Shown one piece after another: positions 10,085 to 64,000 of a stretch of 64,000 nt of DNA. The notes beneath the pieces are model-generated. The model was not told where the DNA came from. It saw nothing but the letters and a program-made list of their open reading frames with translations, and ran no database searches. The position numbers were made by a program, and so were the translations under genes. Numbering within the stretch: the stretch's first letter is position 1; every line of letters starts with the position of its first letter. Source of the DNA: Eledone cirrhosa (lineage: Eukaryota); the NCBI GenBank assembly GCA_964016885.1, contig OZ024757.1, positions 15,004,001 to 15,068,000 on the forward strand. The letters run 5' to 3'.

Positions 10085-10709
10085 TATATACATATATATA
10101 TATATATTATTAATATATATGTTATTATTACATAACCATATATAAATTTATTATTAATCATCAACCAACAATTATTAATAAGAAGAAATAATAAAAAATA
10201 AAAAATTTTATGTTTAAAATATAGGAATGTTTCTAAACCCATGGAAATTCAGAGATTTTACCAAAGAATAATCTCTTCTTCGCAATACAGCATGAAGGAA
10301 ATTAAGTGATTTATTTGTAATTTAGATAGCTCTAAGGATTAAATGTTATAAAGGTTAAGATGATAAAAAAGTTAAGATTATAAAAAAAATCTTATACTAT
10401 TTTATAGTAAGTTATAATTTTATAAATTTTATATATTTTATAAATACACCTGTTATACAGTTGTGACTGTTAAAATATAAGTTTGTTTACTATTACGTCT
10501 TAAAGTTTTTCATAAGGATACATCTAAAGCATAAACAGTAAAAAACCTTTTATACGTGTTCATTCATAGAATGTATTCAAATTATACATTTTGATATATA
10601 TACATATACATACAGACATACATACATGTATACATGATGGCTGCCCCCTCATTATCGAGTATGGCCATTGCACGAGAAAAAAAAAAATAAAATGAAAATA
10701 AAATAAAAA

Positions 10710-24700: not shown

Positions 24701-27700
24701 ATTAATGAGACGCATCGTTCATATGACGCCCTGCAGTATCCCCTTCTTTTTCCGTACAGAGACGACGGGTACCATTCGGCATTCCTCAGCACAAACCAAA
24801 CGAGCCCACTGCTGCGACATCTAAAACTGTTTCATGTATGGCTTTCTACTCATACCGCTTCATGACAAGGCATAATGATTTTAGCCCCCTGCACAGCTCA
24901 CGGGAACTGTTTCACCAGTTTGCAGTTGACATGGCTGCAAAGATGGAGTTCGAGAGACTGTGCTTCATCAAATTGAATCAGAAGCAGCTGCGCTCAGACT
25001 CCTACATACATCAGGAATGACACTGACGCCCGCAACATCGGCAAGATGTGCATTCTCCCCTCAACCTATACAGGGGGCCCACGGTACATGCACGAGCGAA
25101 CACAAGACGCTATGACTTACGTTCGGCATTATGGGCGACCCGATTTATTCATCACCTTTACATGTAACCCAAAGTGGCTTGAGGTAACGTGAGAACTTCT
25201 CCCAGGGCAGCAGTACTGCCATCGCCATGATATTATTGCAAGGGTTTTCAGACAGAAGCTCGCTAAGCTCATTGATTTAATAAAAAAAGGGCAGGTTTTT
25301 GGGCCTGTTAAGTGCCACATGTATACTGTTGAGAGGCAGAAAAGAGGGTTGCCACACGCGCACATTTTGCTTTGGTTGGTCAACAAAATAGACCCGACAG
25401 TTCTTGGTGACGTCATCGCAGCAGAAATCCCGGACCCAACTGTTGACCGGCAGCTGTACGACATTGTGAAGGCACACATGGTGCACGCTCCGTGTGGTCC
25501 CGGTTTTCAAAAGTTCTCCTCATGTCACAAAGACGATGTGTGCACTAAACGATACCCAAAGAGGTTCGTGGAGGAGACCCAGACCGGCCACGACGGATAC
25601 CCACTGTACAGACGAAGGCACCCTGACAATGGTGGATTCACTATGACGTTACGGGGTCATCAAGTGGATAATAGGTGGGTAGTCCCGTACTGTCCATTTC
25701 TGATGAAAACTTTTAACGCTCACATAAATGTGGAGTTCTGTCATTCAGTAAAGTCTATAAAGTATATATGTGAATATGTTAACAAGGGTTCTGACGCTGC
25801 CATGTTCGGCCTTAAAAAGACAATAGCATGGACGAGGTGTCGGAGTACTTGGCAGGTCGATACATAAGCAGTGGTGAAGCTTTTTGGCGGATATTCGGGT
25901 TTCCGCTTCACCAAAGGCATCCCGCCATCATACAACTAACGGTTCATTTGGAAAATGGCCAGCGAGCTTACTTTACTGAACAGACTGCTGCTCAATTGGC
26001 GGCAAATCCAAAACAAACAACTTTGACCGGTTTCTTTAGGCTTTGCCAAATTGACACATTTGCCAAAACACTTTTATACCCTCAGGTCCCGTCCTACTAC
26101 ATGTGGTCAAACAACAATTGGGTGCGTAGGAAGTCGGGTCAGGATGTTGAAGGACATCCTGGTGTCAAGTTTAACAGTTGTCTAGGAAGAGTGTACACTG
26201 TACCTCCCAACCAACATGAGTGTTTTCACCTGCGCCTTCTACTCCATGAGGTTTTAGGCCCACAAAGTTTTCAAGACATCAGAACTGTTGACGGTGTATT
26301 ATGTGATACTTTCTGCGAAGCCTGCTTTCAGCGTGGACTTTTGGAGGACGATTCACAATGGGGCACCACTATGGCAGAGGGTGTTTCGTTAAAATCTCCT
26401 AAAAAAATCAGATCGCTTTTCGCTATTCTACTCCTATGGTGTGACTTGGCTGATCCCGCCTCTTTATGGCTTACTTACAAAAATTATATGTCTGAAGATT
26501 TCCTGTGTCACGCTCAATGGCTACATCCATCAATGGAGGTTGGGTACAGTGACCTCATTTACAACAGGGCGCTGCTTGAAATCGAAGATACTGTACTTGA
26601 TATGGGCGGTAGTGCCTTGGCGGTATATGGCCTACCTTCAACAAACCGGGAACGCACAAACACACTGTCTTCAGATTTGCTGCGTGAGACATGTTTTAAT
26701 GTTGACGAGCTTGCACAGTACATAGCCGAGAATGAGCCAAAGCTACTTCCAGAACAGAAGTTCACTTACAACTCCGTTGTTAATTCAGTCCGGGCCAAAG
26801 CTGGAGGGATTTTTTTCCTGGACGCTCCTGGGGGCACTGGGAAAACTTTTGTCAACAAATTAATATTGACTGAGATTAGGCGAACACAAGGCATTGCCCT
26901 AGCTGTGGCATCATCTGGAATTGCGGCTATTTTGTTGCCAGGCGGCAGGACAGCTCACTCCACTTTCAAGCTTCCGCTTGACTTAGTGAAGACTGAGACA
27001 CCAACTTGCAACATCAGTAACAGCTCCGATCAGGCAGAAGTCTTCAGACGATGCAAGCTTATCGTTTGGGATGAATGCACAATGGCCCACAGAGGTGCTC
27101 TTGAGGAACTAGATAGATCTCTCAGAGACATCAAACACTCTACAGCTCCCATGGGAGGCATAACACTTCTTCTCTCAGGGGACTTCCGGCAAACACTTCC
27201 CGTTATTCCCAAGGGGACTAGAGCTGATGCAGTAAGTGCGTGTCTTAAGTCATCCACATTGTGGCCACTGGTGAACACTCTTAAACTTAACACTAACATG
27301 TGTGCTCATATGCGACGTGATATCACATCAGCAGCATTTTCTCACACCCTCCTTGCACTTGGCGAAGGCAAAATAACCGGGGATGAAAATGGTAATATTG
27401 CCATCGATTCCATTTGTACCATTGTTAATACGCCTTCTGAGATGCAGTGTTCCCAGATCTACAAGCTAATTATCAGAATATGGATTGGATTGGCCAAAGG
27501 GCTATTCTGGCCCCGAGGAATAAAACTGTTCACCATATTAATGATCAAATGCTAAAACTCATTCCTGGGGATGGCTATGTATATAAGTCTATCGATACAA
27601 CTCCTGACCCAGAGGACGTCAGCAACTATCCAATAGAGGTACTCAATTCCTTTGAGCCCCCCGGACTACCACCACACATTCTCAAACTTAAAGTTGGTGC

Positions 27701-28939
27701 CCCTATAATACTCATTAAAAATTTGGTTCCCCCGAAACATTGCAATGGCACACGTTTGATCGTTAAGTCCTTATCTCCCAATCTGATTGAGGCCACGATT
27801 ATCACAGGGTGCGGTCGAGGCAACGTTGTGCTCATACCTAGGATGCATCTTTTCCCATCAGGAGCAGACGTACCTTTCACATTTCGGAGGTCCCAGTTCC
27901 CAGTAAGGCCATGTTTCGCTATGTCAATTAACAAAGCGCAGGGTCAAACACTGTCTGTGGCGGGAATACATTTGGGGGAGCCATGTTTCTCTCATGGTCA
28001 GCTTTACGTTGGCTGCTCGCGTGTTGGCAGCAACAGTGATGCTTTCGTGTTCGTTCCACAACGAAAAACGAAAAACATTGTGTACAAGGTTTTATAGGAT
28101 TACTACGCTTCATCATTTTGGAACAACACGTTAGTATTTCACTTATATACGACTCTCTTTTATGATGGCATTTACATTTTTAGGCGTTTCCTGAAATTAC
28201 TTCACACTTAACCAACACCTGTCCTCCGCTCACCTCTATTTCCATCCATTCGTCATCAAACCAGCAGCCTCATCTATATCCAACGTACATGAGACATCTA
28301 CCCCTACATCTACACTCTCACTATTAAAGTTTACACCAGCGACAACACGATCGCAACATACACTTTCAAAACTAAGCAACAGATCATTTTATACAACAAC
28401 AAATTTACTCATAACGCCGATCAATGAAAACAACATCTCCACCACAGACGTGTTGTGATTCATCTATTCAGCACCACTACAGTCTTGCCGGTCTGACAAA
28501 TGGTGAGTAGATGCTATTGTTCTAGATTTTATAAATTACCCGTATTTACTTACCCATACTTAATTCCCCTCTTGCCTACATAGGGCATCGATTCTCTTTT
28601 AACACACCATGAAGTTTTGTAACAGCACATCCGCTGCCGTTCGTGGAAAACGAAGAGGCCCTATTCACCTGCGAACGTTTTACACCCCCTTCCACGACTA
28701 TCAAATTCTTACAATTATGAGAACAATAACATGGCCCTTTTCAAGGCAACCTCACATTCAATTCTTACACCATTCTACGAGGGGTAGGAACCCCTTTACA
28801 GGGCTTTCTATACACTTACAAATAGATTCATTCGGCTTAAACTTATATCAATCTTTGCCTGAATAATCATAATTCAGTGCAATCATTAACAGTACTTTCA
28901 AGCAATTCAGCCCCGAGCAACGCCGGGCACTTCTGCTAG
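21791..28939 (+). mobile_element. Helitron (Rep-Pif1 helicase), degraded; 5' boundary uncertain
   Basis: 3' end GC hairpin CCCGAGC-AAC-GCCGGG (~28911-28927) followed by CTAG|T at 28936-28940; RepHel coding remnants; ~310-bp internal repeats at 21791-22340. Confidence 0.9.
23418..28097 (+). pseudogene. Helitron RepHel protein (frameshifts/stops)
   Basis: (M)PPKKRSRLGR start with ATG>ATA; DLFITFTCNPKW; QKRGLPHAHILL HUH motif; KYICEYVNKG; DAPGGTGKT, IVWDE, GDFRQ, AMSINKAQGQT, SHGQLYV. Confidence 0.95.
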
Positions 28940-32470: not shown

Positions 32471-33019
32471 CAGGTCACCACGATATCTCTCTCTCGCCTC
32501 CTGATTTCCGAAGTGGTAACACCTGCGACCTTAGCCTGAGATGATTCCTTTTTGATAATCCTTCACTACCAAGAACAATGCAACATGCAGCCTGAGAGCC
32601 TAAGATGTTAATACCAGCTAGAAAAGATCTCTTCTTTTCTCTACACACTTCAGCCTGGAATTGTGACCATCGGGTAACGCACCATTATATTTAATACCTT
32701 TGACTTCTATGAAGTAAAAACATTATCACAACACACACCGGTATTTACTGTCTTTTGTAATAATTTTATATGTACACCGATACTAATCTCCTAAAGTGGT
32801 GACCCCCGACGTGATTTAAAAAGAAAAAAAAAGAATGGGAAATGGTATACGGTGTATATAATGGAAAAAAAGAAAGACAGAAGAAAAAGAGAAAAATATA
32901 ACAATTTAATACAAAACGAACACCTACAATTATTGACACACAGACAAACAGCAATTGTATAAATGTTTTTGCCTTTTTTTTCTCTCCTTTTCTGCCTTCT
33001 CTTCTCTGGCTAAAAATGT

Positions 33020-34543
33020 TTGAGGATGACAAGATGGAGTCTCTCTTCTCCATCAATAGTGTTTTTGGCGCGAAATGGTCCGCCATGTTGGATTTTTTTT
33101 TTAGGTTCCTTGCCCTTACTTAATCGCTTGTTTACGAACAGTACCAAATACCTCTTGAATATATTGAAAAACCATCCATCAATTGCGATATTTCACAAAA
33201 GATCATACAGCAGTATAAAGCACTGCCAAGATGCGCCGCACTTCCATATCATTTCATGGCATAAGGAGCATCCTACCAACATTCATTCTTTTTATATGCT
33301 TAAAAATATAATACGGAGCACAGCTAAACCCTACGAGATGAATGCGCAAAAAGTTTTCAATCCGTACGGTCTATGTAGATATCTCACAAACGACAAAGAT
33401 AAACGGGACACGATTGCAGCCTCAAATATTACTACAACTGGACAAATACATGTCCTTCAGGCATTAACTGACAAACAAATTGACCTAACCAACAGCGAAA
33501 TCCAGGCAGCAGCTAATACGTACACAGACAAACAAACGATACGTGGAAGAAAACATGACTTTATAAAACAATTAATGTCAGCAGCAAATTCTACAGAGCT
33601 AGGTGACCTCATATGCTTCGCTAAAAATACAACGGATCGAAACAAATCGAAAAAATGGGATGATATTTACAGAAATACACCCAACCTAATAAGCATCATC
33701 AACGCAACGGCCACGGAATTAAATATAGAAACGATCAGCATACCCATATGGCAACAACTACAGCAGAAAACGGAACTATTCAACGAGATGAATTTTAAAC
33801 ACCATTCTGTGCAGACCTCCTTAAATATATTTACCTCGTGGGTGAAACACCACAATTTCAATCCAGAGGCATTCGCTCGTGAAACATTCGAGGTATGCCA
33901 TAAAATACATCCGAAAAAGAACGGACTCCACATCACCGGCGTCTCCAATAGTGGTAAATCGTATATTTTACGTTCTGTAAGGAACGGTTTAATGAATAGC
34001 GGTAGAATGAGATGCCAAGCCGCTGATAGCTTCACTTTCGGAAGCTGTATCGACAAGCCACTTATATACACGGACGAGATGTGGTTTACTAACAACAACA
34101 TAGAAGAGGGTAAATGTATTTTGGAGGGAACAAATACCTACATTAATGTGAAGCACCAGCAGGAGAGAGTGCTGAAAAGAACGCCCTGCTTGTCTACAAG
34201 TAACACGGAACCGTGGAGAGTCGTGCCGCAAGATGAGGATGCGATTAGAAATCGACTATTTTATTATGTCACTAACCAGCCGATGCAAAAACTGAAAGAC
34301 TGGGGCAAAATAGAGTTGAATCCACTAATGTGGTTAACCACATGGAAGCCGTACATCGACAAATTCATAGACCATAAATACACAGATATATACACGTCCG
34401 AGGACGCACCGCCAAACTCGGATCTCTACACCATCATTCTGAGCGATTATGAATCGCCAGATAGTAAAAGAAAACTAAATGCGGTTAAACGTAAATTAGT
34501 CGAACAATTGTACACACCGACACCGAAAAAAATTAAAAATTGA
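33020..34543 (+). CDS. NS1: Endogenous parvovirus-like NS1/Rep (HUH endonuclease + SF3 helicase), uninterrupted frame
   Basis: HUH PHFHII, tyrosine motif LCRYL, Walker A GVSNSGKS, Walker B IYTDE, B' KCILEG...NVKHQ, motif C STSN, Arg finger IRNRL; first ~35 codons probably not viral NS1. Confidence 0.9.
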   Translation: MRMTRWSLSSPSIVFLARNGPPCWIFFLGSLPLLNRLFTNSTKYLLNILKNHPSIAIFHKRSYSSIKHCQDAPHFHIISWHKEHPTNIHSFYMLKNIIRSTAKPYEMNAQKVFNPYGLCRYLTNDKDKRDTIAASNITTTGQIHVLQALTDKQIDLTNSEIQAAANTYTDKQTIRGRKHDFIKQLMSAANSTELGDLICFAKNTTDRNKSKKWDDIYRNTPNLISIINATATELNIETISIPIWQQLQQKTELFNEMNFKHHSVQTSLNIFTSWVKHHNFNPEAFARETFEVCHKIHPKKNGLHITGVSNSGKSYILRSVRNGLMNSGRMRCQAADSFTFGSCIDKPLIYTDEMWFTNNNIEEGKCILEGTNTYINVKHQQERVLKRTPCLSTSNTEPWRVVPQDEDAIRNRLFYYVTNQPMQKLKDWGKIELNPLMWLTTWKPYIDKFIDHKYTDIYTSEDAPPNSDLYTIILSDYESPDSKRKLNAVKRKLVEQLYTPTPKKIKN

Positions 34544-34889: not shown

Positions 34890-35213
34890 TCACCTCCTTC
34901 GCCAGCAAGAAGAAGAATACCGGCAGCCTAAAAAAATACTAACACCTCCAAGAGAAGATTTCTGTTCTTCTCTACACACTCCAGCCTGGGAGTTGTGACC
35001 AACTGAACATCTCCATGTCGTAACAAATTATTTATATCAATTTATTTGACTTCTGTGAAGTAAAACCTTGTCACAACACACACCGGTATTTATTGTCATT
35101 CCTGATAATATATATATGTACACCGATACTAATCTCCTAAAGAACTATTGCCCCTTCACTTTACACAGCATCAATGAAGACACCTTTGAGACTGTGATAA
35201 GAAAACTTCAAGA
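34890..35213 (+). other. Second diverged copy of the viral region upstream of NS1
   Basis: Aligns by eye to 32560-32796 (TCTCTACACACT, ACAACACACACCGGTATTTA, TGTACACCGATACTAATCTCCTAAAG). Confidence 0.75.
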
Positions 35214-49147: not shown

Positions 49148-52125
49148 TCTATGTAACTATGACTCTCTCTTGTCGGCACCACCCTTGGCGTGGGAAGAGA
49201 GCTTAAGTCAGTGGTTTTGAGCTGTACGAGAGAGGCAGCTCTGTCCCGCTTCCCTTTTTTTTTTTTTTTTTTGTGGTGGTCAGTGTTGACTCGGCAGGTT
49301 CTACCATTCTCGGTTGGTCGGCCACATTAATGACGAACTAATTGGTGCCTAAATTATGATGATACAAAATTTGAAGTCCATACGGCAGCTGGGGGCCGAA
49401 AAACCAGTGGCCGGAGGGAATGGGATGGGTCCCTCCGGCCTGTCGCAGCGTTCTGTAATGGCCCGCTGCGATTGGCAACTGTCTCCGAGGACTGGCAAAG
49501 AGCCGGGCCATGTTCCTCGTAAGAGCGCCGGCTCACTGGATTTGACCCACCGGAGGTTTCAAATACCGACTATACTAGTCCGTAGGGATACACCCGATAA
49601 ATTTATTCTGGAGTACCCAACCCACGCTTTGGTTTTGAGAGGCAAGCAACTGCCGTCGGGCCAACGGTCGCGGGGGAGGACTGTCTCGAGATTCCGTGTA
49701 AGAGCGTAGTCTTGTTTTGTTCGTGCTGTTCGCGTCATTTCTCGGGCCCGTATGGTGGGCGGAGCATTTGCTGCGCTGTCATGAGCGAAAGGCAGTTTTT
49801 AGGTGCAGCAAATGCGGTAGGGAAAGTTGCCACCTGCATTCGCTCCGGGTGCACGTGGGCCGATGTACGGGCAGGAGATGGGACGACATGCCCGCCGTCT
49901 CGGACTTGATCCACAGGTGCGGAGAGTGCGACCGTGCCTTCCGTACGGTCGCAGGAAGATCGCAGCACGAGAGGCATCGTCATCCAGTGGCAGCCAATCG
50001 CCGCAGGATCGCGAAACACGCGGAGGAGATCGGAAAGAAGCGTGCCTCTCGTGCTGCTGCTGCAGCCTCTCGTGAGAAGGCTGGGCAGCCCCGCACCCGG
50101 GTTGGCCGTGGTTGTTGGTCCGAGCAGGAGGTTTCGGTCCTTCTCGAGAAGGAGGACGAGCTTCTTAGGGCGGGGTGTCGTCGTGTCAATCTTGGGATCG
50201 CTCCTTTCCTGCCCGGAAAGACTGTGAAACAGATTAGTTCGAAGAGGAGCGATCTAAGGAATAAAAAGAAATACTGTAAACAGTCCCCTACCCGTTCTGC
50301 AGGGTCGTTAGAAAGACGGCCGCCTATGGATTGGAGAGTTGGGTTTGTCGAGTTTGGCGTACGCGGATGACAATGCTCTGGTGTCCGGCTCCTCGGTGGA
50401 GATGCAGCGCCTAGTTGACAGGTGTGTGTCTTTCTACCGGGAGATGGGGCTAGCAGTCAATGTCTCCAAATGCGCCTTTTTCTCGATTAAAGCGTGGGGA
50501 AAGTCTTTCTTGGTCAACACGGACTCCGCCCCTGAGACTGATGGGATTCAGCTCTTGAGAATCGACCCTGCGGAGAAGTGTTCTTACTTAGGTGTTAGTG
50601 TCGGCCCGTGGTCGAAGCTCGAGTTGAAAGTTTCGGTGGAGCAGGTGTCACAGTGTGTCGATCAGATTTGCTGTGCTCCACTGAAGCCCCGGCAGAAATT
50701 CCATCTACTACAGCAGTATTACCTGCCTAGATTGTTTTAGTCTGGTGCAGGTGATGCCTAGCCGGATTAAACTTGAGGAGCTAGACGCGGCGATTCGCGC
50801 GGGAACACGTAAGATTATGCATCTGCATGCGTCGACCTCGGTTTCCTTCTTGTACTGTAGCAGGCGGCACGGTGGTTTGGGTCTTTGCCATCTGGCGAAG
50901 TTAATCCCATCCATCGTGATTCGTAAGAATCTCCGCCTGCTAGCCTCTCGATATGACGCGGTTCGTCTCATGGCGGAATCGGCGGGCCTCGCTATGCGGA
51001 ACAGCGAGATAGCGTTACGCTATGGGCTACCTCCGGTCTCGCCTGGCGCGTCCACGTACGAGCCCGATCTTGGACGACAGGCCGCCGAGGCCTGGGCCTC
51101 CCAGCCCGTCCAGGGGGTGTGTGCGGGGTCGTTTCGGGGTGACCGAATCGGCAACGATTGGTTGCTCCGCCCGGGTGTGGCTTCTGAGGGGACCTTTCTG
51201 AGTTGTCTGAAATTGCGAACCAATACGTTTCCCACTCGGGAATGCTTGACGAGAGGAGGTCGCGGTGATAAGTCCTGCCGACGCTGTGGAACGGCCGCGG
51301 AGACAATCGCCCATATCAGTGGCCAGTGCCCTCTTCTCAAGAGAAAGCGACTGGCTCGGCATAACCAGCTGTGCCAACTGATAGCGGGCGAATCTATGCG
51401 CCTCGGTTGGGCGGTTGGCTGGGAGCCGTCCTACCGGGTGAACGATGCGAGGCTCATTCCAGACCTGGTGATGACGAGAGGAGGTGCGACGTTGGTCGTT
51501 GATGTTACGGTGAGATTTGAGCAGGGGAGTGCCTTGATTGACGCTGCGGCGGAGAAGGTACGAAAATACCTTCCCCTAACGGCTCTGCTGGAGAATGAAA
51601 CGGGTGGGAGAGTCTCAGTCCATGGCTGTCCCATTGGGGCCTGCGGAGCCTGGTCCGTCGCGGCTGAGGAGACACTTGGCGCTCTTGGGATCGTTGATGA
51701 TGCGTTCAGGAGGCTCTTGTGTCGTAGAGCGATGCTAGCGACGCTGGGCATGCTTGAATGAGCTCTGGCTCAGCTCGGCTTGCTGGCGGGCTCGCGAGGC
51801 GGGGCTATCTGGACTCTTCTGGTTCCTCTTGCTGTAACTGACTGTCGTCTGCTCCCCTCTTGTATGGACTCACACTGGGTTCGGGGGATGATTGCCTCGG
51901 ATTTTTTTTTTTTTTTTTTTACGCGTTAGAGCCCGAGTCCACTCTTCCTAACTCAGATTAACAAAACTAAACCGGTCAGCGGTCGGATAGGAAATCCGAG
52001 TAGGAGAGGTGAGACGACTCCGCCGTTTCCGCTAGTCTGGGCGTTCGTGGTGGTTTCACGATGGCACGCCCCTTACCCCCCCGTCGCAGGGTTACGCGTT
52101 TATTTGTTAATTACTAAAAATTTAT
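49148..52125 (+). mobile_element. R2 lineage A, copy A2 (about 1.2-kb internal RT deletion at ~50326)
   Basis: Starts with the same CTATGTAACTATGACTCTCTCTTGTCGGCACC junction as 40145; CGCCTA|TGGATT joins A1 positions ~41878 and ~43085. Confidence 0.93.
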
Positions 52126-55100
52126 TAATTGTATGTTGAGTGGGAGAGTGGAAACTTGGGTCTCGAGGAGCGGTTTTTTTTTTGTTTTTTTTTTTTGATG
52201 AAGGAAATAATGGATTGACAGATGGCGGGTCGAATTGCGGTCGGCGTGACAGGATCATTCTGCCACGGCCGGCGTGCGGTTTGATCTGCGATCAGAACTA
52301 ACCGGAATGACAGGGGCGCACCGTTCATGCCATAAGAGCTGAGATGGCGCTGGCCCGTGGGACCACCCACTTCAAATAACAGGGAAAGGCGTCTCGTACC
52401 TTTAAAAAAGGTGCGAGTTAAATGCCAGCTACCATAGCCAACGGACCGCCACACCCCCTTGTCGCAGGGAGAGAGCTTAAATTCGTAGAACGAGCTACGC
52501 GGGAGAACCGGCCCCCATCCGGAGGCCGCTTCGGTAGGTGTAACCAGTCCCGATTGGTCGTTCCACACCAGAATGAACTAAGCGTGTGGAAAGAATAAAA
52601 CTATGGCAAAGTTGAAGAGTACAATTATCAGACGGGTGCATGGCCCCGCAAACATGCGGCCGGTTGGAACGGAACGAATCCAACCGGTCAGGGGCTGTTG
52701 GTTGAATCAACCGGCAGCCACGCGAAGCTATCGTTCCTTGGTGCAGACAAGGGATCGGGTCCGTACTACAGTAAGACAGCCGATCCCATCGGATTCAAAC
52801 TTTATTCCTACTATCGTGGTCCGTAGCGGAACGGGTGGCCGCTTCACCCTCGACTATGGCACCCACATCTTGGCGCTCTCCGGGAACCAGCTCCGCCGCC
52901 ACCTGGCTGTGGTTCCCGCCCCTGAGTGCGCCGATCACGCGACATTGGCCCCGGATGACGCCGAATCGGACACGCTTATTCCGTACCGGGTTCCGTTGTT
53001 GCACTACCGCCTTTGCTCCCGTAGCTTCTCAACGCCGGCCTCCCTGGGCCGTCACCAGGTCGATCGACGCGGGGTCTGTACCGTGTTCAGATGCCGTTTC
53101 TGCGGCCAGAGGAGCGTGGCGCTCCATTCGATCAGAGTGCGCGCGGGACTCTGCTCCCGCACTCTGCTCGTTCCGGCCGCTGCCGCCGGCGTGCCGGCTG
53201 GGTCCGAGAGTTGCAGCCTTTGTGGTAGAGTCTTTGCCACCGTGTCCGGAGTGTCGCAGCACATGCGCCACCGACACCCCGACGAGTCGAACGCAAGACG
53301 TATCGCCAGTTATTCCAAGGAACTGGCGGAGAAAAGAGAGAAACGTGCCCTGGCGAGGGCTGGGCCCGAGCCCGTCCCACGTCGGAAGGGCCGTGGTTGT
53401 TGGTCTAACACGGAGATCAGCATACTCCAGTTGGAGGGAGAGCGGTTGGCGCGGGAGGGCGTGCGATTCGTGAACGTGGTCCTCGAGTCCTTTCTCCCCG
53501 GCAAGAGTCGTAAACAGATCAGCGACAAGCGACGAGACCTGACGGCGAAAGGCAGGTCTAGTGCACCGGTGATCCCGCTTCCCGCGGCGCTGGCCGCCTC
53601 GAGCCTCTCCCAAACGGCTGCCCCCGACAACGCGGCCTGGCGGGAGATGTTTAGAGCCGCCACCGTCCCGGGTCGTTCGAAGTGGTCGGTGGAGTTCGCG
53701 GAATGCTCTTTGGAACTCGCTGAGGGGTTCACAGAGGAAATCTGGCGGAGGTAGGAGGGAAGCCTGGGCGATTGGATCGGCTCCCTCCGACCTGTCGGTC
53801 CCAGGGCAGAGAGCGGTCCCCGACGTAGGGGTAAGGGAGTGACGGTGAGACCGCGAGGGGCTGGAGGGAGAGGCCAGCGCGCGGTGCAGTCCCGGTTTCA
53901 GAGGCTTTATGAGAAGGACCGACGGCGGCTTCTTAGGCTGATACTGGGCGAGAGTGCGAGCGGCGTCTGCCCAGTTCCGCTGGTCGAGGTAGGGGGGGAT
54001 TACCGGGCTAGGTTCGCGGAGCGAGGTAGCGTAGTTGATCTTGGCGCGTATCTGCCCTCCGAGGGCGTGGTGAACTCCGCGCTGCTGCGCCCGTTTAGTG
54101 TCCCGGAGATTACCTCGGCTCCCGGGGGGCTGAGGGCCGGCTCGGCAGCAGGCCCAGACGGGGTCCCCCAACGGGCGATTCGGAGGGCCGGCCCAGAGGT
54201 CAGCGCTAATCTGTTCAACTGCTTCCTTCTGGCGGGTCGTGTACCAACGGTGCTGAAAGAAGGCAGGTCCATTCTTCTGCCTAAAAGCGGAAGAAACCCG
54301 AACGACCTGTCCGACTGAAGGCCCCTGACGATTTGCTCTGCGATTTATCGTCTCTACACGAAGGTTCTGGCGAGGCGCTTCTTGCAAGCCACTTCCCTGA
54401 ACCAGGCGCAGAGGGGATTCATTAAGGCAGACGGGTGCGGCGAGAACGTTTTTGTGATTCGCGAACTGATTGCGATGGCGCAGGGTCGGAGAGGTGCCCG
54501 ACGTCTGGGCCGTCTGGATGTCGCCCTTTTGGATCTCGCAAAGGCCTTCGACACGATTCCCCATCAGTTGGTGGCCGCCGGTATGAGGCGGAAGGGATTT
54601 TGCGCTCACATCACTGACCTTGTCGCTGACCTGTACACGGGGGCGACGACCAGGTTTGAGTTGCGCTCGGGGAGGAGCGACCCCATACCGATTCTGAGAG
54701 GAGTCCGACAGGGTGATGCGCTTTCCCCGATTCTGTTTAACATAGCGACGGGCATATCGTGCTTGGCATACGCGGACGACACGGCACTGTTGTCCGGCTC
54801 CTCAGGGGGCCTGCAGCGTCTGCTCGATCAGAGCGCGAGCTTCTTCGGGGAGGTCGGCATGGCGGTGAATGTGTCTAAGTGTACGTCGTTCGCGCTGGAG
54901 TCGCGGTCCTCCCGTACCTTCTTTGTGAATAGGGATGCGTCCCCGGTGATCGGCGGTAGGCCTCTGCCGCGGATTGACCCTGCCGACAGGTCCTTCCGAT
55001 ATCTCGGGGTGGAGGTCGATACTTCGTCCGGTGGTGGCGAGGTGGTCTCCGTGGAGTGGTTGCGCGGATCCCTCGAAAAAATCCGCGCGGCGCCCCTCAA

Positions 55101-56413
55101 GCCGAGACAGATGTTGGATCTGGTTCAGACCTTTCTCCTCCCGAGATTCCTCTACGGTCTGACGATGAATCTTCCGGCGCGATGCGTGCTCGAGTCACTG
55201 GATGCGGTGGTGCGTTCCGGGGTGCGGTCGTTCTTACATCTCCACGAGTCGACATCGTCCCATTTCCTCTACAGTTCCAGGGCGGATGGCGGACTCGGCC
55301 TCCAGGAGCTGGCGAGATGTATCGCGGCGAACGTGATTAAACTCTACCGCAGACTCGAGACATCTAGCTCGGCTGCAGTCCGGGGGCTTGCAGACGCGGC
55401 TGGTCTGCGTGCGAGGTGCGCCGAGATTGCCACCAGGTACGGACTGCCGCTGCCGCCTTCTGACCCGGAGCGGCCTTATGATCCCGGCATCCGAGCGTTC
55501 CACTCGCGGGCGTGGGAGTCGCAGCCGGTGCAGGGGGTATGTGCGGCCGCCTATCGTGGGAACGCAGAAGGCAACGACTGGCTATACAGTGGCGGCCCCG
55601 GCCCCCTCGAGGAATGGACGTTTCTGTGCTGCCTTAAGATCCGTACGAACACGTTTCCCACGCGGGAATGCCTCGCAAGGGGAGGCAGGGGAGGTCGCTC
55701 ATGTCGTAGATGCGGAGCGAGGGTCGAGTCGCTCTTGCATCTGAGCGGGGCGTGCCCCGCATACGGGCGCCTTCGGCTTCACAGGCACAACTCGGTGTGC
55801 GGTTGGATCGGAAAGGAAGCGGAGCGCCTGGGCTGGTCGGTCGCGGTGGAGCCGGTCTTCTTCGTGGAGGGCCGAAGGCTCATTCCGGATCTGGTATTTA
55901 GCAAGCCGGGTTGGACGGTCATAATTGATGTGACGATTCGGCTCGAGCAGGGTTCGGCCCTTGAGAGGGCGGCCGAGGAGAAAGTGTCGTAATATTCCCC
56001 GTTGGCGGATTCGCGTCGGGAGGGCGATCCCCGGACGACGGTCTTCGTGCACGGTTTTCCAATTGGGGCTTGTGGCAGCTGGTCCGTCGCGGCCGAGGCA
56101 GCTTTGAACGATCTTGGAGTTGGTGGCGGTGCGTTCCAGAGATTCCTCTGCAGGCGCACTCTCTGTAACACCATGGGGATGTTACGTGATTGAGCACGCC
56201 CGCGGGGCGCCTCCTTTGCTTCGTATTAGACCTTTCGGGCCCATCGATGGCGACCTCCCGTAAAAGCTCACCGTGGCCGAGCCCGCCCTCCCAACTAAAA
56301 CTGGGCTGGGTGTCGGCCGTTGAGTTACAGTCGCCAACGATCCGGCTCCCGGCTTTTTGTTTCAGACACGGATCCCCGCCACAGGGCGACGCGCCGGTGT
56401 CCGAACCTCGAGC
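52126..56413 (+). mobile_element. R2 lineage B, copy B2 (ORF 52603-56193 with stops; 3' UTR truncated)
   Basis: All R2 domains including RHN, PDLVF, IIDVTI. Confidence 0.94.
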
Positions 56414-57327: not shown

Positions 57328-59871
57328 CCCTTTAGCGTTCAAAGCGACAAAAACCGACAAAATTATGTCCCCTTTCATTTATTCAAACCGACAAAAACCG
57401 ACATTTCAGACCACTCGTAGATCTCCTTCTAAAAATAAACATTGACATCATCAAAATCTCGTCAATTCGAGATTACAGCGAGATAAAGCCCTTACGCGCG
57501 AAAATTAACTCTTAGTATAGTTAAAGACCTTGTGATAACACGTGTTTTTAACTTTGAAATTGTAACATGGCTTCCGAAAGCAGCGACAACGATTTTGAAG
57601 GTTTTACATTCTACGACATTCAAGATAAAAAAGAAACAGAAGATAATATCAGTGATTTATCTTCAAATGAATCAGATATATTTATTTCTGATATATCTGA
57701 TGATGATGATAGTCACTTTGAAAGTGAAAGCGAAGAGATATCTGACACCATTGAAAAAACACCAACGTGGTTGAAAGAAACAACACCGATACATGTTTCG
57801 GATTTTAATGAAAATTCTGGACCACAACACACATTACCACCCGATGCTAAAGCTCTGGATTATTTTTTTTTATTTCTACCACAAACTTTCTTCAAAGTTG
57901 TGGCAGAAGAGACAAATCGCTATGCACAACAACAGATTTCTAATCGAGCAAAACCCGATCTGTTATGGCGTCCGACAGATTCTGCCGAAATGAAAGCGTT
58001 TTTTACCATAAACATTATGTTTGGTATTAAACAATTTCCACGACTGTGGAATTATTGGAGTACTGATATAAGGTTTGGTGACCCTTATATATCTAGTATT
58101 ATGGCCAAAACGAGATTTATAAAATTAAACCAGTATTTGCATCTGGTTGATACTACAAATGCCCCTGGTAGAAATGAATCGAATTACGACCCACTGTACA
58201 AAGTACGACCATTAATTGAAATGTTGACGGAAAAATTTAAAAGTATGTATTTACCTGGAAAAAATCTTAGTGTTGATGAAGCTATGATTGGGTATAAGGG
58301 TAGGGTTCATTTCAGACAGTATATGCCAGCTAAACCCACCAAATGGGGCATCAAAGTGTGGGAACTGTGTGAATCGGACACGGGATATTGTGTAAACTTT
58401 GATGTTTACACAGGAAAAAAACTTAACGGAGAGAGAAAGCACGGGTTGGGTTACGATGTTGTGTGGTCGCTGACTCAACCCTTCCACTTTCAACACAGAC
58501 ACATTTATTATGACCGTTTTTTTTCTTCGGTGCTTTTAGCAGAGGATCTTGCCCTTGTAAATACGTACACCTGCGGCACAATAATGAGCAATCGGAAAGG
58601 GCTACCCCAAGAAATAAAAGTTGCGAAACTAAAAAACAGAGGAGACATTCTCCAAATACAAAAAGAGAACATGTTAGCCACAGTGTTCAAAGACAAACGG
58701 CAAATTTTGTTCCTGAGTTCTAACCAACAACCAGGTGTTGGGGCTGAGGGTAGACCTTTAGTTAACCTCTCCTACAATAAATATATGGGTGGGGTTGACA
58801 AATCCGACCAATATTGCGCGTATTACCCAGTTGGACGCCCTGGAAAGAAATGGTGGAGATACATCTTGTGGTTTTTAGTGAATTTAACCATTGTGAATTC
58901 TTATATTGTATTTACTAAAAGCCACAAGGATCCGCCACCACCAAAGGACTACTGCCACATGAAATTTCGCGTGGACATTGCATCCCAGCTACGTGGGGGA
59001 TATACTTCTCGCAAACACAAAGCTGGGAAAAAATCAAAATTAGCAGTGGTCCACAAAGAAAATATTGATTTTCATAAAGTGGAGAGAATTGATGGTAGGA
59101 GGAAGGTTTGCCGATTGTGCTCTTTGCAAAAGAGAAAAACTGTTAAAGGTTACGCAATCCAAACCCTATTTATGTTCCTTTTGCAAAGTGCCCTTATGTA
59201 AAGGGTGCTTTGGGCAGTATCACGATAGAAATATTGTCTGACAATATTGAAAACAATATTTTAAAAATATATTAGCACACATATACAAAAACACCTGCAT
59301 TCACCTGTGACACACCTGTTAATGAACTTATATATTGGGAACATTCTGTTACGTAATTTTACACCGTACATTGTGTAAGAGTACATTGCCAATATTATTT
59401 TGACTGGGGAAAAGGTTTTATACATTTTTTTCAATGAAAATATTTGCCTAGAATGTAGAGAAAGACTAAAACATTGTACTGATTACACCTGCATTTTTAA
59501 TTAATTCACCTGTTCGGAAAACTGCTAGAATTGATGGAAATCATAATCTAGATCATTATTGGATTTTTTTGCAACAAATCTAACAGGTAAGGCAGATAAA
59601 GTTTAAATTTTTGTGTTTATCCATAAAGTTATTACTTTTACACCTGTTAATTAATTTTACCTGCCCATAAAAGTCAAATTTAACAAAAAAAAATCAGGTA
59701 AAAATATATAATTGTAAATTATAGTTCTTTAAACGTCTACTGACAAAATTTCAAGTCTGCACATAGAAAATTAAAGTAATTAGAAACAAATAAAATTGAT
59801 AACCCTCTTGAGTGAAAATAATGCGAATAGATGAACATGACATTTGACAATTCAATGTGAATGCTAAAGGG
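57328..59871 (+). mobile_element. piggyBac DNA transposon, 2544 bp
   Basis: TTAA at 57324-57327 and 59872-59875; 14-bp terminal inverted repeats CCCTTTAGCGTTCA / TGAATGCTAAAGGG (1 mismatch). Confidence 0.97.
57567..59201 (+). CDS. piggyBac transposase (frameshift in C-terminal cysteine-rich domain)
   Basis: Acidic N-terminus; SVDEAM, YYDRFF, GGVDKSDQ DDD triad; KPTKWGIK; rest of the Cys domain is in another frame to 59241. Confidence 0.95.
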   Translation: MASESSDNDFEGFTFYDIQDKKETEDNISDLSSNESDIFISDISDDDDSHFESESEEISDTIEKTPTWLKETTPIHVSDFNENSGPQHTLPPDAKALDYFFLFLPQTFFKVVAEETNRYAQQQISNRAKPDLLWRPTDSAEMKAFFTINIMFGIKQFPRLWNYWSTDIRFGDPYISSIMAKTRFIKLNQYLHLVDTTNAPGRNESNYDPLYKVRPLIEMLTEKFKSMYLPGKNLSVDEAMIGYKGRVHFRQYMPAKPTKWGIKVWELCESDTGYCVNFDVYTGKKLNGERKHGLGYDVVWSLTQPFHFQHRHIYYDRFFSSVLLAEDLALVNTYTCGTIMSNRKGLPQEIKVAKLKNRGDILQIQKENMLATVFKDKRQILFLSSNQQPGVGAEGRPLVNLSYNKYMGGVDKSDQYCAYYPVGRPGKKWWRYILWFLVNLTIVNSYIVFTKSHKDPPPPKDYCHMKFRVDIASQLRGGYTSRKHKAGKKSKLAVVHKENIDFHKVERIDGRRKVCRLCSLQKRKTVKGYAIQTLFMFLLQSALM

Positions 59872-61175
59872 TTAAGGACGAACTAATTGGCGCCTAAAAT
59901 AATGATTGTAATAAATTATTTTAAAAAAAATCATTTATATCCGTACGGTAGCTGGGGGCCGTTTTAAAACCAGTAACCGAGGGGTCGGGATGGGCCCCTT
60001 AGGTTTACTAACCGCAGCGGGCCGTTGTGGTAGCTCCGTGATCATTACAGCGGATCGTGATGGGATATGGAGTCGCCGTGGTGGCTCGCTGTGGTACTTA
60101 ACCACCCTCGAGGGCTGACAGGGAGCCGGGATACGCCCTCTGGATTAGAGCCGGCTCAAACCTTTTTTTTTTTTTTTGTCCTTGTTTTTCTTTTTGTGTG
60201 GGCGCGGAAGTTCCTGGAAACTCTCTTCCTAGTTTTTTTTTATTAACTCGGTGAGCGGTCGGATATAATATCCGAGAAGGAAAAGTAAGACGTCTCCGCC
60301 GTTCCGCTAGTCTGGTGGTTCGCCTTGGGAAAGCGATAGAACCACCTTATCCCCCCGTTGCAGGGTTACGCGTTGCTTAAAGGAAAGTGCTTTTCTTTTT
60401 GTATTATTAACAGTTTCGTTATTTTAGGAATAGGAAGGGAGTGATGAAATGGCTTCTGGAGCGCCCCACTTTTTTTTTTAGTACAATGGCACGGCCAAGG
60501 AGTTTAGAACCTCTCTGTGCAGGATTCGTGCAACAGGATCTCCGCGCGGGGTTCGGTTCGGGTTGCTCACTTGGTGCGTCCAACTGGATTGACAAAATAG
60601 CACGGCCGGGAGCGCTTAGTGTCTCGCATTGTTCGCTCGCTGAGGGGGTTCCCAGCCAGCCCTCGCGGGGTCCATGGCTTGGACTGCTCTCTTGGCGTGA
60701 CCAACCGAATTGACAGGGCACACCGTTCATGCCATAGTTCGCTTGATGGCGTTGGCCCGTGGGACCACCCACTTTAAAAAAAGGGAAAGGCGTCTTATAC
60801 TTTGAAAAAAGTATAAGTTAAATGCCAGCTAAAAGAGCTGTACGACTCTTTGAGCTGTACGAGTGAGCCAACTTGACGCGTTTCTTTTTGCGGATTAACG
60901 CGTGTCCGTACCTTTCGACCGAGGTGCGGGCTCAGGTTGGCTCGGCAGGTTTTACCATACTCGGTTGGTCTGCCACATTAAGGACGAACTAATTGGCGCC
61001 CAAAATAATGATTGAAATAAATTATTAAAAAAATCATTTATATCCGTACGGTAGATGGGGGCCGTTTAAAACCAGTAACCGAGGGGTCACGTTGGGCCCC
61101 TTAGGTTTAATTCTCTTACCGCAGCGGGCCGTTGTGGTAGTCCCGTGATCATTACAGCAGATCGTGACGGGATAT
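59872..61175 (+). mobile_element. Non-autonomous R2-derived element (lineage C), tandem partial copies
   Basis: Leader end + post-AUG structures (59876-60160) fused via poly-T to A-like 3' UTR (60201-60374), then a new leader (60420-61175); no R2 ORF. Confidence 0.75.
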
Positions 61176-61364
61176 AGATCTTAAGTATATGTACGAAGGA
61201 CAGCGTATAGTTATATTTGACTTTACTCGTGCACAACAGAATCACATTAATTATGAAGTTATTGAATCTATTAAGAATGGTCTCAGATGCTCTTGTAAAT
61301 ACTTTTCTTATACTAAGTCATTTCCTATACCTCATGTTATTGTATTCGCCAACTTTTCTCCCAA
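61176..61364 (+). pseudogene. rep: CRESS DNA virus Rep helicase fragment (nanovirus/alphasatellite-like motifs)
   Basis: YEGQRIVIFDFTR (Walker B), NYEVIESIKNG...SCKY (B'), PHVIVFANF (motif C); AT-rich island within GC-richer R2 leader. Confidence 0.88.
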
Positions 61365-64000
61365 TGCGATTGGCAACTGTCTCCGAGGACTGGCAAAGAG
61401 CCGGGCCATGTTCCTCGTAAGAGCGCCGGCTCGCTGGATTTGACCTACCGGAGGATTCAGATACCGACCATACTAGTCCGTAGGGATACACCCGATAAAT
61501 TTACTCTGGAGTACTCTTGAGCGGTTTGAACTGCGGTCGGTACCTACCGGATTGACATCGGCACACCGTTCATGCCATATTGTCCTAATGGCGTTGGCCG
61601 TGGGACCACCCACTCTAAAAACAGGGAAAGGCGTCTCATGCTTTGAAAAAAAAAAAGCACGAGTTAAGTGCCAGCTACAATAGCCACCCTTGACGTGGGA
61701 AGAGAGCTTAAGTCTGTGGTTTGAGCTGTACGAGAGAGGCAGCTCTACCCCGCTTCCCCTTTTTTTTGTTTTTTTTTTGCGGTGGTTAGGGTTGACTCGG
61801 CAGGTTCTACCATTCTCGGTTGGTCGGCCACATTAAGACGAACTAATTGGTGCCTAAATTATGATGACACATATTTTGAATTCCATACGGCAGCTGGGGG
61901 CCGAAAATCCAGTGGCCGGAGGGAATGGGATGGGTCCCACCAGCCTGTCTCAGCGTTCTGTAATGGCCCGCTGCGATTGTCAACTGTCTCCGAGGACTGG
62001 CAAAGAGCCGGGCCATGTTCCTTGTAAGAGCGCCGGCTCACTGGATTTGACCCACCGGAGGTTTCAAATACCGACTATACTAGTTCGTAGGGATACACCC
62101 GATAAATTTATTCTGGAGTACCCAACCCACGCTTTGGTTTTGAGAGGCAAGCAACTGCCGTCGTGGCTCGCGTGCGACCCCATGGACTCTGTCTGTGAGG
62201 TTGGGCAAACAGTCGCGGGGGAGGACTGTCTCGAGATTCCGTGTAAGAGCGTAGTCATGTTCTGCTCGTGCTGTTCGCGTCATTTCTCGGACCCGTCTGG
62301 TGGGGCGGAGCATTTGCTGCGCTGTCATGAGCGAAAGGCAGTTTTTAGGTGCAGCAAATGCGGTAGGGAGAGTTGCCACCTGCATTCGCTCCGGGTGCAC
62401 GTGGGCCGATGCACGGGCAGGAGATGGGACGACATGCCCGCCGTCTCGGACTTGATCCACAGGTGCGGAGAGTGCGACCGTGCCTTCCGTACGGTCGCAG
62501 GAAGATCGCAGCACGAGAGGCATCGTCATCCAGTGGCAGCCAATCGCCGCAGGATCGCGAAACACGCAGAGGAGATCGGAAAGAAGCGTGCCTCTCGTGC
62601 TGCTGCTGCAGCCTCTCGTGAGAGAGCTGGGCAACCCCGCACCCGGGTTGGCCGTGGTTGTTGGTCCGAGCAGGAGGTTTCGGTCCTTCTCGAGAAGGAG
62701 GACGAGCTTCTTAGGGCGGGGTGTCGTCGTGTCAATCTTGGGATCGCTCCTTTCCTGCCCGGAAAGACTGTGAAACAGATTAGTTCGAAGAGGAGCGATC
62801 TAAGGAATAAAAAGAAACACTGTAAACAGTCCCCTACCCGTTCTGCAGGGTCGTTAGAAAGACGGCCGCCTAACCAGCCGAGTGGGGCGTCCATCCCGGT
62901 TGCATCTGATAGCGATTGGAGGAACTTGTTTGGCGAGGCGGTGGAGCAGGGGCGCTCCCAATGGTCCGCCGCTTTTGCCGAGTATCTTGTTACATTCTGT
63001 GATGAGATCACGGATGAGAGCTGGGATGCGTTCGCCGGGTTTGTCGACGAATGGGTGAACAATGTGTGCTCGAATAGAAGGCGTGGTGGAGCGCGAAACA
63101 CACGGAAAAAGAGTAGATTTAAAAGGCCCTATAAGAAAACTGGTAGAAAGAGTGCAAAGAGTTTGCTCTACGCTCGCTACCAGTTTTTGTATGACCGAGA
63201 CAGGAAGAAGCTCCTTACAGTAATTTTAGGCGAAGAGATGCAGGGGGTGTGTCCTGTCCCGATGGCGGACATCGCGTCTGCTTACGAGGACAGATTCTCC
63301 GTCCCTGGACCAGATGTGGATCTTAGCGCGTATCCCGCAACGGAGATGGTTAACAATGAGCCGCTTTTGCAGCCGTTTACCGTGTCCGAGGTGGTGGGTG
63401 CGCGTAGGTGTATGGATCCGCATTCGGCTCCGGGGCCCGACGGAATCACGCCCCAACAGGTGCGCGCAATCGACCCTGCAACTCTAGTGAACTTATTCAA
63501 CTGTTTGCTGCTAGCCGGGAGAGTTCCTGATATCTTGAAGCAGGGAAGGTCAGTCCTCATTCGCAAAAAGATGGACGGTCCGATCGACCTTTCCAATTGG
63601 AGACCCCTAACGATATGCTCTGCCATGTATCGTCTATACAGCAGGATTCTCTCCAAAAGAATGCTTCAGGTAACACCCCTGAACCCGGCCCAACGAGGGT
63701 TCATTAATGCGGACGGCTGCAGTGAGAATTTATTCTTACTGCAGCAACTAATCGCTCGCACTAGGGGTGGGCTAGCTCGATCGAGGATTCGGCAGTTGAA
63801 CGTGGCCTTCTTGGACCTTGCCAAGGCCTTCGATACTGTTCCGCACTCACTTGTGTTTGCGGGCATGAGAAGACTTGGATTTCACGAACACATGGTCGAA
63901 GTCGTGAGAGGTCTATACGAGGGCTGTGTCACAAAATTCTCGGTCGGAGCGGAAACGAGCAGAGCCATCTCGATCAGGCGAGGAGTACGGCAAGGAGATG
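61365..64000 (+). mobile_element. R2 lineage A, copy A4 (duplicated leader; runs off window end)
   Basis: Homology to A1. Confidence 0.95.
61861..64000 (+). CDS. R2 protein, apparently open reading frame to window end (partial)
   Basis: ATG at 61861 is in frame with RAISIRRGVRQGD at 63961; the ORF track lists no terminated ORF in this frame. Confidence 0.85.
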   Translation, partial: MMTHILNSIRQLGAENPVAGGNGMGPTSLSQRSVMARCDCQLSPRTGKEPGHVPCKSAGSLDLTHRRFQIPTILVRRDTPDKFILEYPTHALVLRGKQLPSWLACDPMDSVCEVGQTVAGEDCLEIPCKSVVMFCSCCSRHFSDPSGGAEHLLRCHERKAVFRCSKCGRESCHLHSLRVHVGRCTGRRWDDMPAVSDLIHRCGECDRAFRTVAGRSQHERHRHPVAANRRRIAKHAEEIGKKRASRAAAAASRERAGQPRTRVGRGCWSEQEVSVLLEKEDELLRAGCRRVNLGIAPFLPGKTVKQISSKRSDLRNKKKHCKQSPTRSAGSLERRPPNQPSGASIPVASDSDWRNLFGEAVEQGRSQWSAAFAEYLVTFCDEITDESWDAFAGFVDEWVNNVCSNRRRGGARNTRKKSRFKRPYKKTGRKSAKSLLYARYQFLYDRDRKKLLTVILGEEMQGVCPVPMADIASAYEDRFSVPGPDVDLSAYPATEMVNNEPLLQPFTVSEVVGARRCMDPHSAPGPDGITPQQVRAIDPATLVNLFNCLLLAGRVPDILKQGRSVLIRKKMDGPIDLSNWRPLTICSAMYRLYSRILSKRMLQVTPLNPAQRGFINADGCSENLFLLQQLIARTRGGLARSRIRQLNVAFLDLAKAFDTVPHSLVFAGMRRLGFHEHMVEVVRGLYEGCVTKFSVGAETSRAISIRRGVRQGD

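What the first reader, a model, noticed from the sequence alone, without database searches (positions are those of the whole stretch)
61176..61364. CRESS-virus Rep fragment inserted between two R2 leaders at near-homologous positions
Seen: 189 bp encoding SF3 motifs B, B' and C replaces part of the GCAGCG...CGCTGCG domain. The left flank is lineage C (..GGGATAT|), the right flank is lineage A (|TGCGATTGGC), there is no target duplication, and the insert is in the same sense as R2. Established: R2 reverse transcriptase jumps between RNA templates. Inference: viral RNA was captured during R2 reverse transcription or repair, a possible route by which ssDNA-virus sequence enters a small-RNA-producing locus.
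Basis: partly seen in the sequence, partly recalled or inferred. Interest (0 to 1): 0.72.

Follow-up and report, generated by a model that had tools for sequence, protein, structure and literature searches.

The report
Viral scrap inside stacked R2 retrotransposons
A 189-base piece of a small circular DNA virus's replication gene, whose closest relative found lies in an octopus genome, sits inside a stack of broken R2 jumping genes in an animal's ribosomal-DNA copy, most likely pasted in as filler when a DNA break between two neighbouring elements was repaired.

Summary
Window 61176-61364 encodes 63 uninterrupted codons of a CRESS-virus Rep helicase (motifs B, B', C). It is 67% identical to Dragonfly larvae associated circular virus-10 Rep and 76-77% to an unannotated Rep in the Octopus vulgaris genome, its sister in a tree. 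It is single-copy in this genome, and one sequencing contig crosses it without a difference. The flanks are R2 sequence: a non-autonomous C-type leader on the left, an A-type leader fused to an A 3' end on the right, in a >30-kb R2 array at a 28S site. The RNA-capture reading is only partly supported. A sister copy at 40144-40790 shares the right half's diagnostic bases and its junction to the next element, yet keeps the intact hairpin, so the viral piece probably replaced part of an element already in the chromosome. Same-sense orientation says little: nearly every mobile element here faces that way, and another R2 junction holds antisense DNA. Best reading: filler capture during a deletion between two tandem leaders (0.55); R2 template jumping remains live (0.33). 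It is a new, short viral fossil pointing to a likely mollusc-infecting CRESS lineage, in an unusual setting.

The parts
61176..61364 (+). CRESS-virus Rep fragment, SF3 helicase motifs B, B', C (reading frame 61177-61365); starts after Walker A and stops before the arginine finger; one to three bases at each end could belong to either side
60835..60848 (+). 5' junction of the chimeric element: 11-nt duplicate of 60852-60862 plus CTC, right after the 3' end of the previous element
   Evidence: sequence
60849..61109 (+). 5'-truncated leader of the non-autonomous C-type R2 derivative, with a 46-nt internal deletion; best match to the sub-type that carries an internal 28S cassette (96.4% to L075 over 60919-61109)
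61110..61116 (+). ATTCTCT, likely the last remnant of the internal 28S target cassette seen whole in L119 and L131
61117..61175 (+). 5' part of the long C-type hairpin (GCAGCG arm and inner stem), cut inside its 3' arm; 98% to L107
61365..61514 (+). A-type R2 leader piece, beginning inside the 3' arm of the homologous A hairpin; 98.7% to L070
61515..61680 (+). three extra bases (TCT), then the last ~163 nt of an A-type R2 3' untranslated region; 95% to the sister copy at 40541-40685
61681..61686 (+). TAGCCA, the first bases of 28S downstream of the R2 site, overlapping the truncated 5' end of the next A element; same junction at 40683-40688
40144..40790 (+). sister copy: A leader with intact hairpin and no viral insert, 96-nt deletion between CCTACCGGA repeats, same 3' end and same junction to the next element
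   Evidence: (joint table)
59872..60834 (+). C-type non-autonomous R2 derivative just upstream, cut at its 5' side by a piggyBac-like transposon at TTAA
61684..64000 (+). next A-type R2 element (zinc fingers, reverse transcriptase), running past the window end
39932..40141 (+). 28S rRNA gene sequence upstream of the R2 site, at the head of the tandem array

Best explanation
The 189 bases are a fossil piece of a CRESS virus's Rep gene, likely captured as filler when a DNA break between two R2 elements already stacked in a 28S gene copy was repaired with a deletion. Shown: the piece is Rep; it joins a C-type leader to an A-type leader; the host array holds many junctions and duplications that span element borders; a sister copy of the right half has the intact hairpin. 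Inferred: the array grew by insertion of new elements at its upstream edge, so a short A derivative (leader fused to 3' end) and, upstream of it, a C-type element were neighbours about 1.2 kb apart; a break, perhaps made by R2 endonuclease or at the hairpin, removed most of C and the first ~320 nt of the A derivative; the two similar leaders guided the ends to near-homologous places; viral DNA present in the germ-line nucleus (single-stranded genome or replicative form) was copied or ligated into the gap with one to three bases of overlap. The polymerase is not identified; R2 protein acting at the break is not excluded. The product is non-coding. It would be read antisense if the locus is a one-strand small-RNA cluster, which is untested.
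For: (1) At two diagnostic sites in the 93 nt they share, the chimera and the 40463 copy carry the L069/L070/L077 bases, while the five other array copies aligned carry the alternative. (2) Both share the long A-run in the 3' end, the TAGCCA junction and the start of the next element, a tract that crosses an element border and so was likely duplicated as DNA. (3) In the sister copy the L069/L077-type bases continue upstream through the whole hairpin, so the ancestor likely had it intact. (4) DNA-level duplication in the array is plain: 43084-48505 matches 50325-55742 at 95.7% across an A-B border. (5) An R2 5' junction on C4 holds 84 nt that are 100% identical to the antisense strand of 28S about 1 kb upstream, so DNA-templated fill occurs at R2 junctions here. 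(6) The genome's other Rep fossil (C1, 48% identity) has no R2 match within its 10 kb, and two parvovirus-like NS1 pieces lie in this locus outside the array: ssDNA-virus capture happens here without R2. (7) Eickbush and Eickbush 2012 (PMC3414825; passages and section 8 read) call non-homologous recombination the more likely origin of internally deleted R2 elements and link R2 to large upstream deletions.
Against: The sister copy is itself a mosaic: its first ~200 nt resemble the 49148 copy, so its intact hairpin could have been restored by recombination. The TAGCCA junction could recur independently through microhomology, and the downstream elements are not clearly sisters over 1.2 kb (96.4% to each other, 96.2% to L063). 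No empty-site copy with a C left half and an A right half was found among 23 and 46 genome matches. All four pieces are in R2 sense, and the TCT junction looks like non-templated addition, as template jumping predicts. R2 copies lie at non-28S sites in 5 of the 20 loci scanned, so R2 protein does act away from its target. The donor virus is unknown, so junction overlap cannot be measured.
Confidence: 0.55

Rival explanations
1. R2 reverse transcriptase made the chimera by template jumping in one insertion event: A 3' end, then A leader, a stall in the hairpin, a jump to viral mRNA or viral single-stranded DNA, then a jump to C-type RNA or a join to C-type DNA upstream.
For: R2 jumps between templates with one or two bases of overlap and needs non-templated addition (PMC8857657, passages). 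U12 snRNA and tRNA were captured at R2 5' ends in Drosophila (PMC3414825 section 8). The A piece starts six bases into a predicted stem, entered from its 3' side. All pieces share R2 sense. The C family once captured about 100 nt of sense 28S some 60 nt upstream of the viral site and then spread (4 of the C-type loci printed).
Against: The sister copy with the intact hairpin and shared downstream junction. No RNA-specific mark in the insert. Orientation is shared by at least 10 of 11 other non-R2 mobile elements in about 100 kb. Jumping gives no reason for landing within 21 nt of the homologous place on another lineage, though a uniform break in a 1.2-kb element would do so about 4% of the time (my estimate) and the array has about a dozen junctions. 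Among 39 related viral contigs Rep is on the origin-motif strand in 16, opposite in 12, unclear in 11, so sense does not separate mRNA from viral DNA.
Confidence: 0.33
2. The piece was copied from a larger endogenous Rep already in the host genome (as DNA or as its transcript), not from an infecting virus.
For: The nearest relative is itself an endogenous-looking Rep on a 100-Mb Octopus vulgaris contig, so larger fossils of this lineage exist in molluscs. Genome searches score only the best candidates.
Against: DNA search finds the insert only here. Protein searches with the insert and with a full Rep find one other clear match, 47-48% identical, with no DNA similarity. The open frame and kept motifs fit a young capture, as do flanks within 1-4% of their nearest copies.
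Confidence: 0.08
3. The junctions are an assembly or library chimera with a contaminating virus.
For: Only run X1 holds the insert; X2 and X3 of the same sample show no cover over it. X1 may be the source of the assembly. The right junction is crossed by 30 letters, one short of the tool's bar for bridging.
Against: One X1 contig covers 61118-61394 with no difference at depth 10.9, like neighbouring single-copy contigs (10.9, 11.9), and bridges the left junction by 58 letters. The closest relative is in another animal genome rather than in an environmental sample. No other part of that virus is in the assembly.
Confidence: 0.04

Closest known systems
Endogenous CRESS-virus (cressdnavirus) Rep elements in eukaryote genomes (Kinsella et al. 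2022, PMC9615429; passages read)
   Same: A Rep fragment in host chromosomal DNA that serves as evidence of a virus-host link.
   Different: Only 189 nt, inside an R2 array at a 28S site; the passages seen concern protist hosts, and the paper has no occurrence of 'mollus' or 'Octopus'.
Rep of Dragonfly larvae associated circular virus-10 (P0002) and the Octopus vulgaris hypothetical protein CAI9729859.1 (P0046)
   Same: 67% and 76-77% identity over the fragment; the octopus protein shares its unusual residues and is its sister (SH-aLRT 96).
   Different: The first is a full viral Rep from environmental samples; the second is a longer, 266-residue genomic piece whose surroundings I could not fetch.
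In vivo R2 template jumps to U12 snRNA and tRNA, and R2 SIDEs, in Drosophila (Eickbush and Eickbush 2012, PMC3414825; passages and section 8 read)
   Same: Foreign sequence of 18-170 nt joined upstream of R2 sequence with a deletion of upstream DNA; short non-autonomous elements made of an R2 5' end and 3' end.
   Different: There the foreign piece lies between 28S and a full-length R2 and one case carries the post-transcriptional CCA that proves an RNA template; here it lies between two leaders, is viral, and has no RNA mark.
Retrotransposon-virus chimeras and viral fossils in one-strand piRNA clusters of flies and mosquitoes (recalled, no call)
   Same: Viral fragment among co-oriented broken transposons and other viral fossils.
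   Different: Those mostly involve RNA viruses and LTR elements; no small-RNA data were available here.

Membership tests
CRESS-virus Rep (Cressdnaviricota) | SF3 helicase motifs B, B' and C in order | tested here: met
   all four key residues present and kept in 182-185 of 185 homologs
CRESS-virus Rep (Cressdnaviricota) | best relatives are Reps with an N-terminal Viral_Rep domain on small contigs | tested here: met
   38 of 44 carry PF02407; 39 viral contigs of 2.0-3.0 kb
CRESS-virus Rep (Cressdnaviricota) | HUH endonuclease, Walker A, arginine finger, origin stem-loop, capsid gene | not testable with these tools
   all lie outside the 189 nt; none found next to it
a named CRESS family | placement inside a family clade of full-length Reps | tested here: inconclusive
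   quick tree, 92 rows, 135 columns, no labelled family references
endogenous viral element | host DNA on both sides in a chromosome-scale contig | tested here: met
   G000:C18, 43.9 Mb; R2 flanks
endogenous viral element | junctions confirmed independently of the assembly | tested here: inconclusive
   one contig in 1 of 3 runs; 58 letters over the left junction, 30 over the right; possibly the source sample
R2 retrotransposon (flanks) | insertion at the R2 site of 28S | tested here: met
   copies between ...TAACTATGACTCTCTT and TAGCCAAATGCC
R2 retrotransposon (flanks) | zinc fingers, reverse transcriptase, restriction-like endonuclease motif | tested here: met
   (PD..D motif read by eye in A and B)
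R2 retrotransposon (flanks) | 5' HDV-like ribozyme | tested here: inconclusive
   complementary ends GGCACCA/TGGTGCC (A) and GGCGCTA/TGGCGCC (C) seen by eye; Rfam at gathering score found no ribozyme; cleavage not testable
R2 SIDE (lineage C) | R2 5' end joined to R2 3' end without ORF, many copies at the R2 site | tested here: met
   5 of the 10 loci L131-L140 show 28S, a ~1.2-kb C element, 28S; also L073, L075
R2 in vivo template-jump product | mark that only an RNA template leaves | tested here: not met
   no poly-A, CCA or gap against homologs in the 189 nt; absence does not exclude an internal mRNA piece
R2 in vivo template-jump product | foreign piece added to the 5' end of a newly inserted element | tested here: inconclusive
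   position fits, but the sister copy suggests the element was already inserted
one-strand piRNA cluster | co-oriented transposon and virus fragments | tested here: met
   at least 10 non-R2 elements on +, 1 on - from L068 to L064; two - hits further out in L065
one-strand piRNA cluster | small RNAs mapping to it | not testable with these tools
   no RNA holder listed

The most novel reading that the evidence does not exclude
R2 reverse transcriptase copied nucleic acid of an octopus-infecting single-stranded DNA virus by template jumping and wrote it into a one-strand small-RNA cluster, making R2 a route by which DNA-virus sequence becomes heritable antiviral guide sequence in molluscs.
Probability: 0.2. 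Interest if true: 0.7.

Novelty: new member of a known kind. Interest (0 to 1): 0.4.

Why it matters
Most CRESS viruses have no known host. This fragment, its sister in the Octopus vulgaris genome, two Batillaria genomic relatives and a second fossil on C1 point to molluscs as likely hosts of a lineage otherwise known from water and invertebrate samples. My searches found no paper on octopus CRESS fossils or on ssDNA-virus pieces inside R2 or 28S arrays; the library lacks most subscription papers. If R2 protein did the copying, it would extend known in vivo R2 template capture from small cellular RNAs to viral nucleic acid. As it stands it is one short, non-coding fossil whose mechanism cannot be fixed from one junction pair.

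Tried and rejected
Pfam and PDB sequences: no match for the 63-residue piece. PF02407 against the own genome: 0 matches, but the control rang nowhere, so uninformative. No RNA holder listed. Runs X2 and X3 show no cover over the insert; the tool states that a hole proves nothing, and contig simplification may drop a low-depth link between high-depth repeats (inference). A closer read-level view of the two junctions in these runs remains open. An empty-site C/A recombinant was sought among genome matches and not found; the leader-to-3'-end junction of the right half is found once among 25 matches. The idea that odd residues in the insert reflect decay was dropped for most of them, since the octopus relative shares them; three residues are found in none of the 185 homologs. 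Using Rep orientation in related viruses to tell mRNA from DNA template failed: 16 +, 12 -, 11 none of 39. The careful tree did not finish; the quick tree on the top 90 of 185 homologs was used. My first Pfam scan gave 32 of 168 ORFs, mostly + strand; 49 more from 1-39,800 (35 on the - strand) gave no - strand hit. Earlier scan findings: none bearing on this. No supplementary files were read; they could list mollusc Rep fossils.

Full report
Observation. The stretch 61176-61364 is 189 bp and AT-rich (32% GC) between R2 flanks of 48% and 54% GC. The + frame from 61177 is open for 63 codons; 227 of 20,000 shuffles are. A search among longer proteins returned 44 of 47 candidates at E<=0.01, 38 of them with the Viral_Rep domain; the best named virus is Dragonfly larvae associated circular virus-10 at 67%. 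A full scan found 1,975 representatives at E<=0.001 and 188 at <=1e-10, and 39 viral contigs of 2-3 kb encode relatives. Against 185 homologs the fragment keeps the key residues of motifs B, B' and C (motif names from my knowledge). It begins after Walker A and ends before the arginine finger.

Whose virus. The closest sequence by identity (76-77%) is a hypothetical protein annotated on a 100-Mb Octopus vulgaris contig. It shares most of the insert's unusual residues and is its sister in a quick tree of 92 rows (SH-aLRT 96; few columns). Of 20 hits looked up, five clusters carry names: this octopus protein, two Batillaria attramentaria proteins, the dragonfly-larva virus and a protein on a 3.9-kb contig of a bacterial bin. 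The window's organism is not given. Its R2 protein's best named relatives, at about 40%, are from molluscs, followed by fish; chromosome sizes and microsatellites suggest an octopod to me (inference only). The octopus Rep itself was not found in G000: the only other clear Rep match is a decayed piece on C1 at 47-48%, with no R2 match in its 10 kb. The insert's DNA occurs once among 23 matches.

Is it in the DNA. One contig of run X1 covers 61118-61394 without a difference at depth 10.9, like its single-copy neighbours; it bridges the left junction by 58 letters and the right by 30, one short of the tool's bar. X1 may be the assembly's source, and two runs of the same sample do not cover the insert, which the tool says proves nothing. 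I take the junctions as real but not independently confirmed.

The setting. From 40144 onward the window is a tandem stack of R2-type elements that follows 28S sequence at the R2 site and runs about 8 kb past the window. A and B are coding lineages (zinc fingers, reverse transcriptase, endonuclease motif). C is a ~1.2-kb non-autonomous derivative, found between the two halves of the 28S site in 5 of 10 loci mapped and in L073 and L075, like the SIDEs of Drosophila (PMC3414825). The host of the insert is a four-piece chimera: C leader (60849-61175), Rep, A leader (61365-61514), and after three extra bases an A 3' end (to 61680). The pieces are within 1-5% of their nearest copies, so the event is likely young. 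Both breakpoints fall in the 3' arm of a homologous predicted hairpin, 21 C bases or 16 A bases apart.

The sister copy. The short element at 40144-40690 has the same A sub-type bases as the chimera's right half at two diagnostic sites where five other array copies differ, the same 3' end and the same junction into the next element. It has lost 96 nt between CCTACCGGA repeats, a joint also seen in contigs of X1 and X3, but it keeps the whole A hairpin, with sub-type bases running upstream of the chimera's breakpoint. A shared tract that crosses an element border is best explained by DNA duplication, which this array has clearly undergone. The simplest order is therefore: short A derivative inserted, tract duplicated, then one copy lost its 5' part and gained the viral piece. 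Against this, the sister copy is a mosaic, the junction could recur by microhomology, and the downstream elements are not clearly sisters.

Orientation. In about 100 kb from L068 to L064 at least 10 other non-R2 mobile elements with a Pfam hit lie on + and one on -; with the insert that is 11 of 12 (p 0.006), or 11 of 14 (p 0.057) if two - hits in L065 are added. Two of them are parvovirus-like NS1 pieces. So + orientation is the local rule, as in a one-strand small-RNA cluster (resemblance; not tested). An R2 5' junction on C4 holds 84 nt of antisense 28S at 100% identity, which shows capture from a non-mRNA template at R2 junctions in this genome. Related viruses carry Rep on either strand.

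Mechanism. I favour filler capture in a deletion between two tandem, similar leaders (0.55): it explains the sister copy, the near-homologous breakpoints and the absence of RNA marks. R2 template jumping (0.33) stays possible: the enzyme does it (PMC8857657, passages; PMC13000458, passages on jumps at 5' junctions), it has put U12 and tRNA at R2 5' ends in vivo (PMC3414825, section 8), the A piece starts inside a stem, and this C family earlier took up sense 28S close to the same place. The two are not exclusive, since R2 protein could have made the break or filled it. A copy from a lost larger fossil (0.08) and an artefact (0.04) are unlikely.

Verdict. A real, new but small viral fossil of a known kind. 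Its value is as host evidence for a likely mollusc-infecting CRESS lineage and as a rare virus-in-R2 junction. I found no paper describing either (search listings only, open-licence library). Interest 0.4.

Noticed in passing
L119:1685-1790, L108, L118/L131:2088-2275, L125; remnant at window 61110-61116: A sub-type of the non-autonomous C element carries its own ~100-nt copy of the 28S R2 target inside its leader. In L131 (C7) a full B-lineage R2 has inserted exactly into that internal target, with the rest of C continuing after B's 3' end: a non-autonomous element that carries a landing site for other R2s.
   Followed up: partly
L069, L072, L077, L134, L139: R2 A and C copies with near-complete 5' ends lie outside 28S, one in a CA microsatellite; 5 of 20 loci scanned. 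Off-target insertion appears common in this genome.
   Followed up: partly
L070 (G000:C4, near 236.7505 Mb): R2-A 5' junction with duplicated leader bits and 84 nt of antisense 28S, 100% identical to sequence about 1 kb upstream of the site.
   Followed up: partly
window 33014-34540 and L064:4020-4577: Two parvovirus-like NS1 (PF01057) pieces on the + strand; the first is a 509-codon open frame with relatives at 43-63% among 15 unnamed proteins, between 76%-identical direct repeats at 32609-32796 and 34940-35142.
   Followed up: partly
G000:C1:385244869-385245099 (L022, L076): Second, more decayed CRESS Rep fossil, 47-48% to the queries, in AT-rich microsatellite DNA without R2.
   Followed up: partly
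window 57328-59871: piggyBac-like transposon with terminal inverted repeats, TTAA at both sides and a 547-codon open frame (PF13843), sitting between an A-type ORF piece and a C-type leader.
   Followed up: no
window 1-64000 with L068, L067, L063, L064: About 100 kb of nested transposons and viral fossils almost all on one strand, resembling a one-strand piRNA cluster.
   Followed up: partly
window 43084-48505 and 50325-55742; 405-3821 and 6671-10087: Segmental duplications, 95.7% across an A-B border and 99.9% near the window start; the latter could be very recent or an assembly duplicate.
   Followed up: no
L063:3003: An A-type ORF is joined directly to the middle of a B-type ORF, another inter-lineage deletion junction in the array.
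   Followed up: no
window 23388-28097: Broken Helitron (Rep and PIF1 helicase pieces) on the + strand.
   Followed up: no
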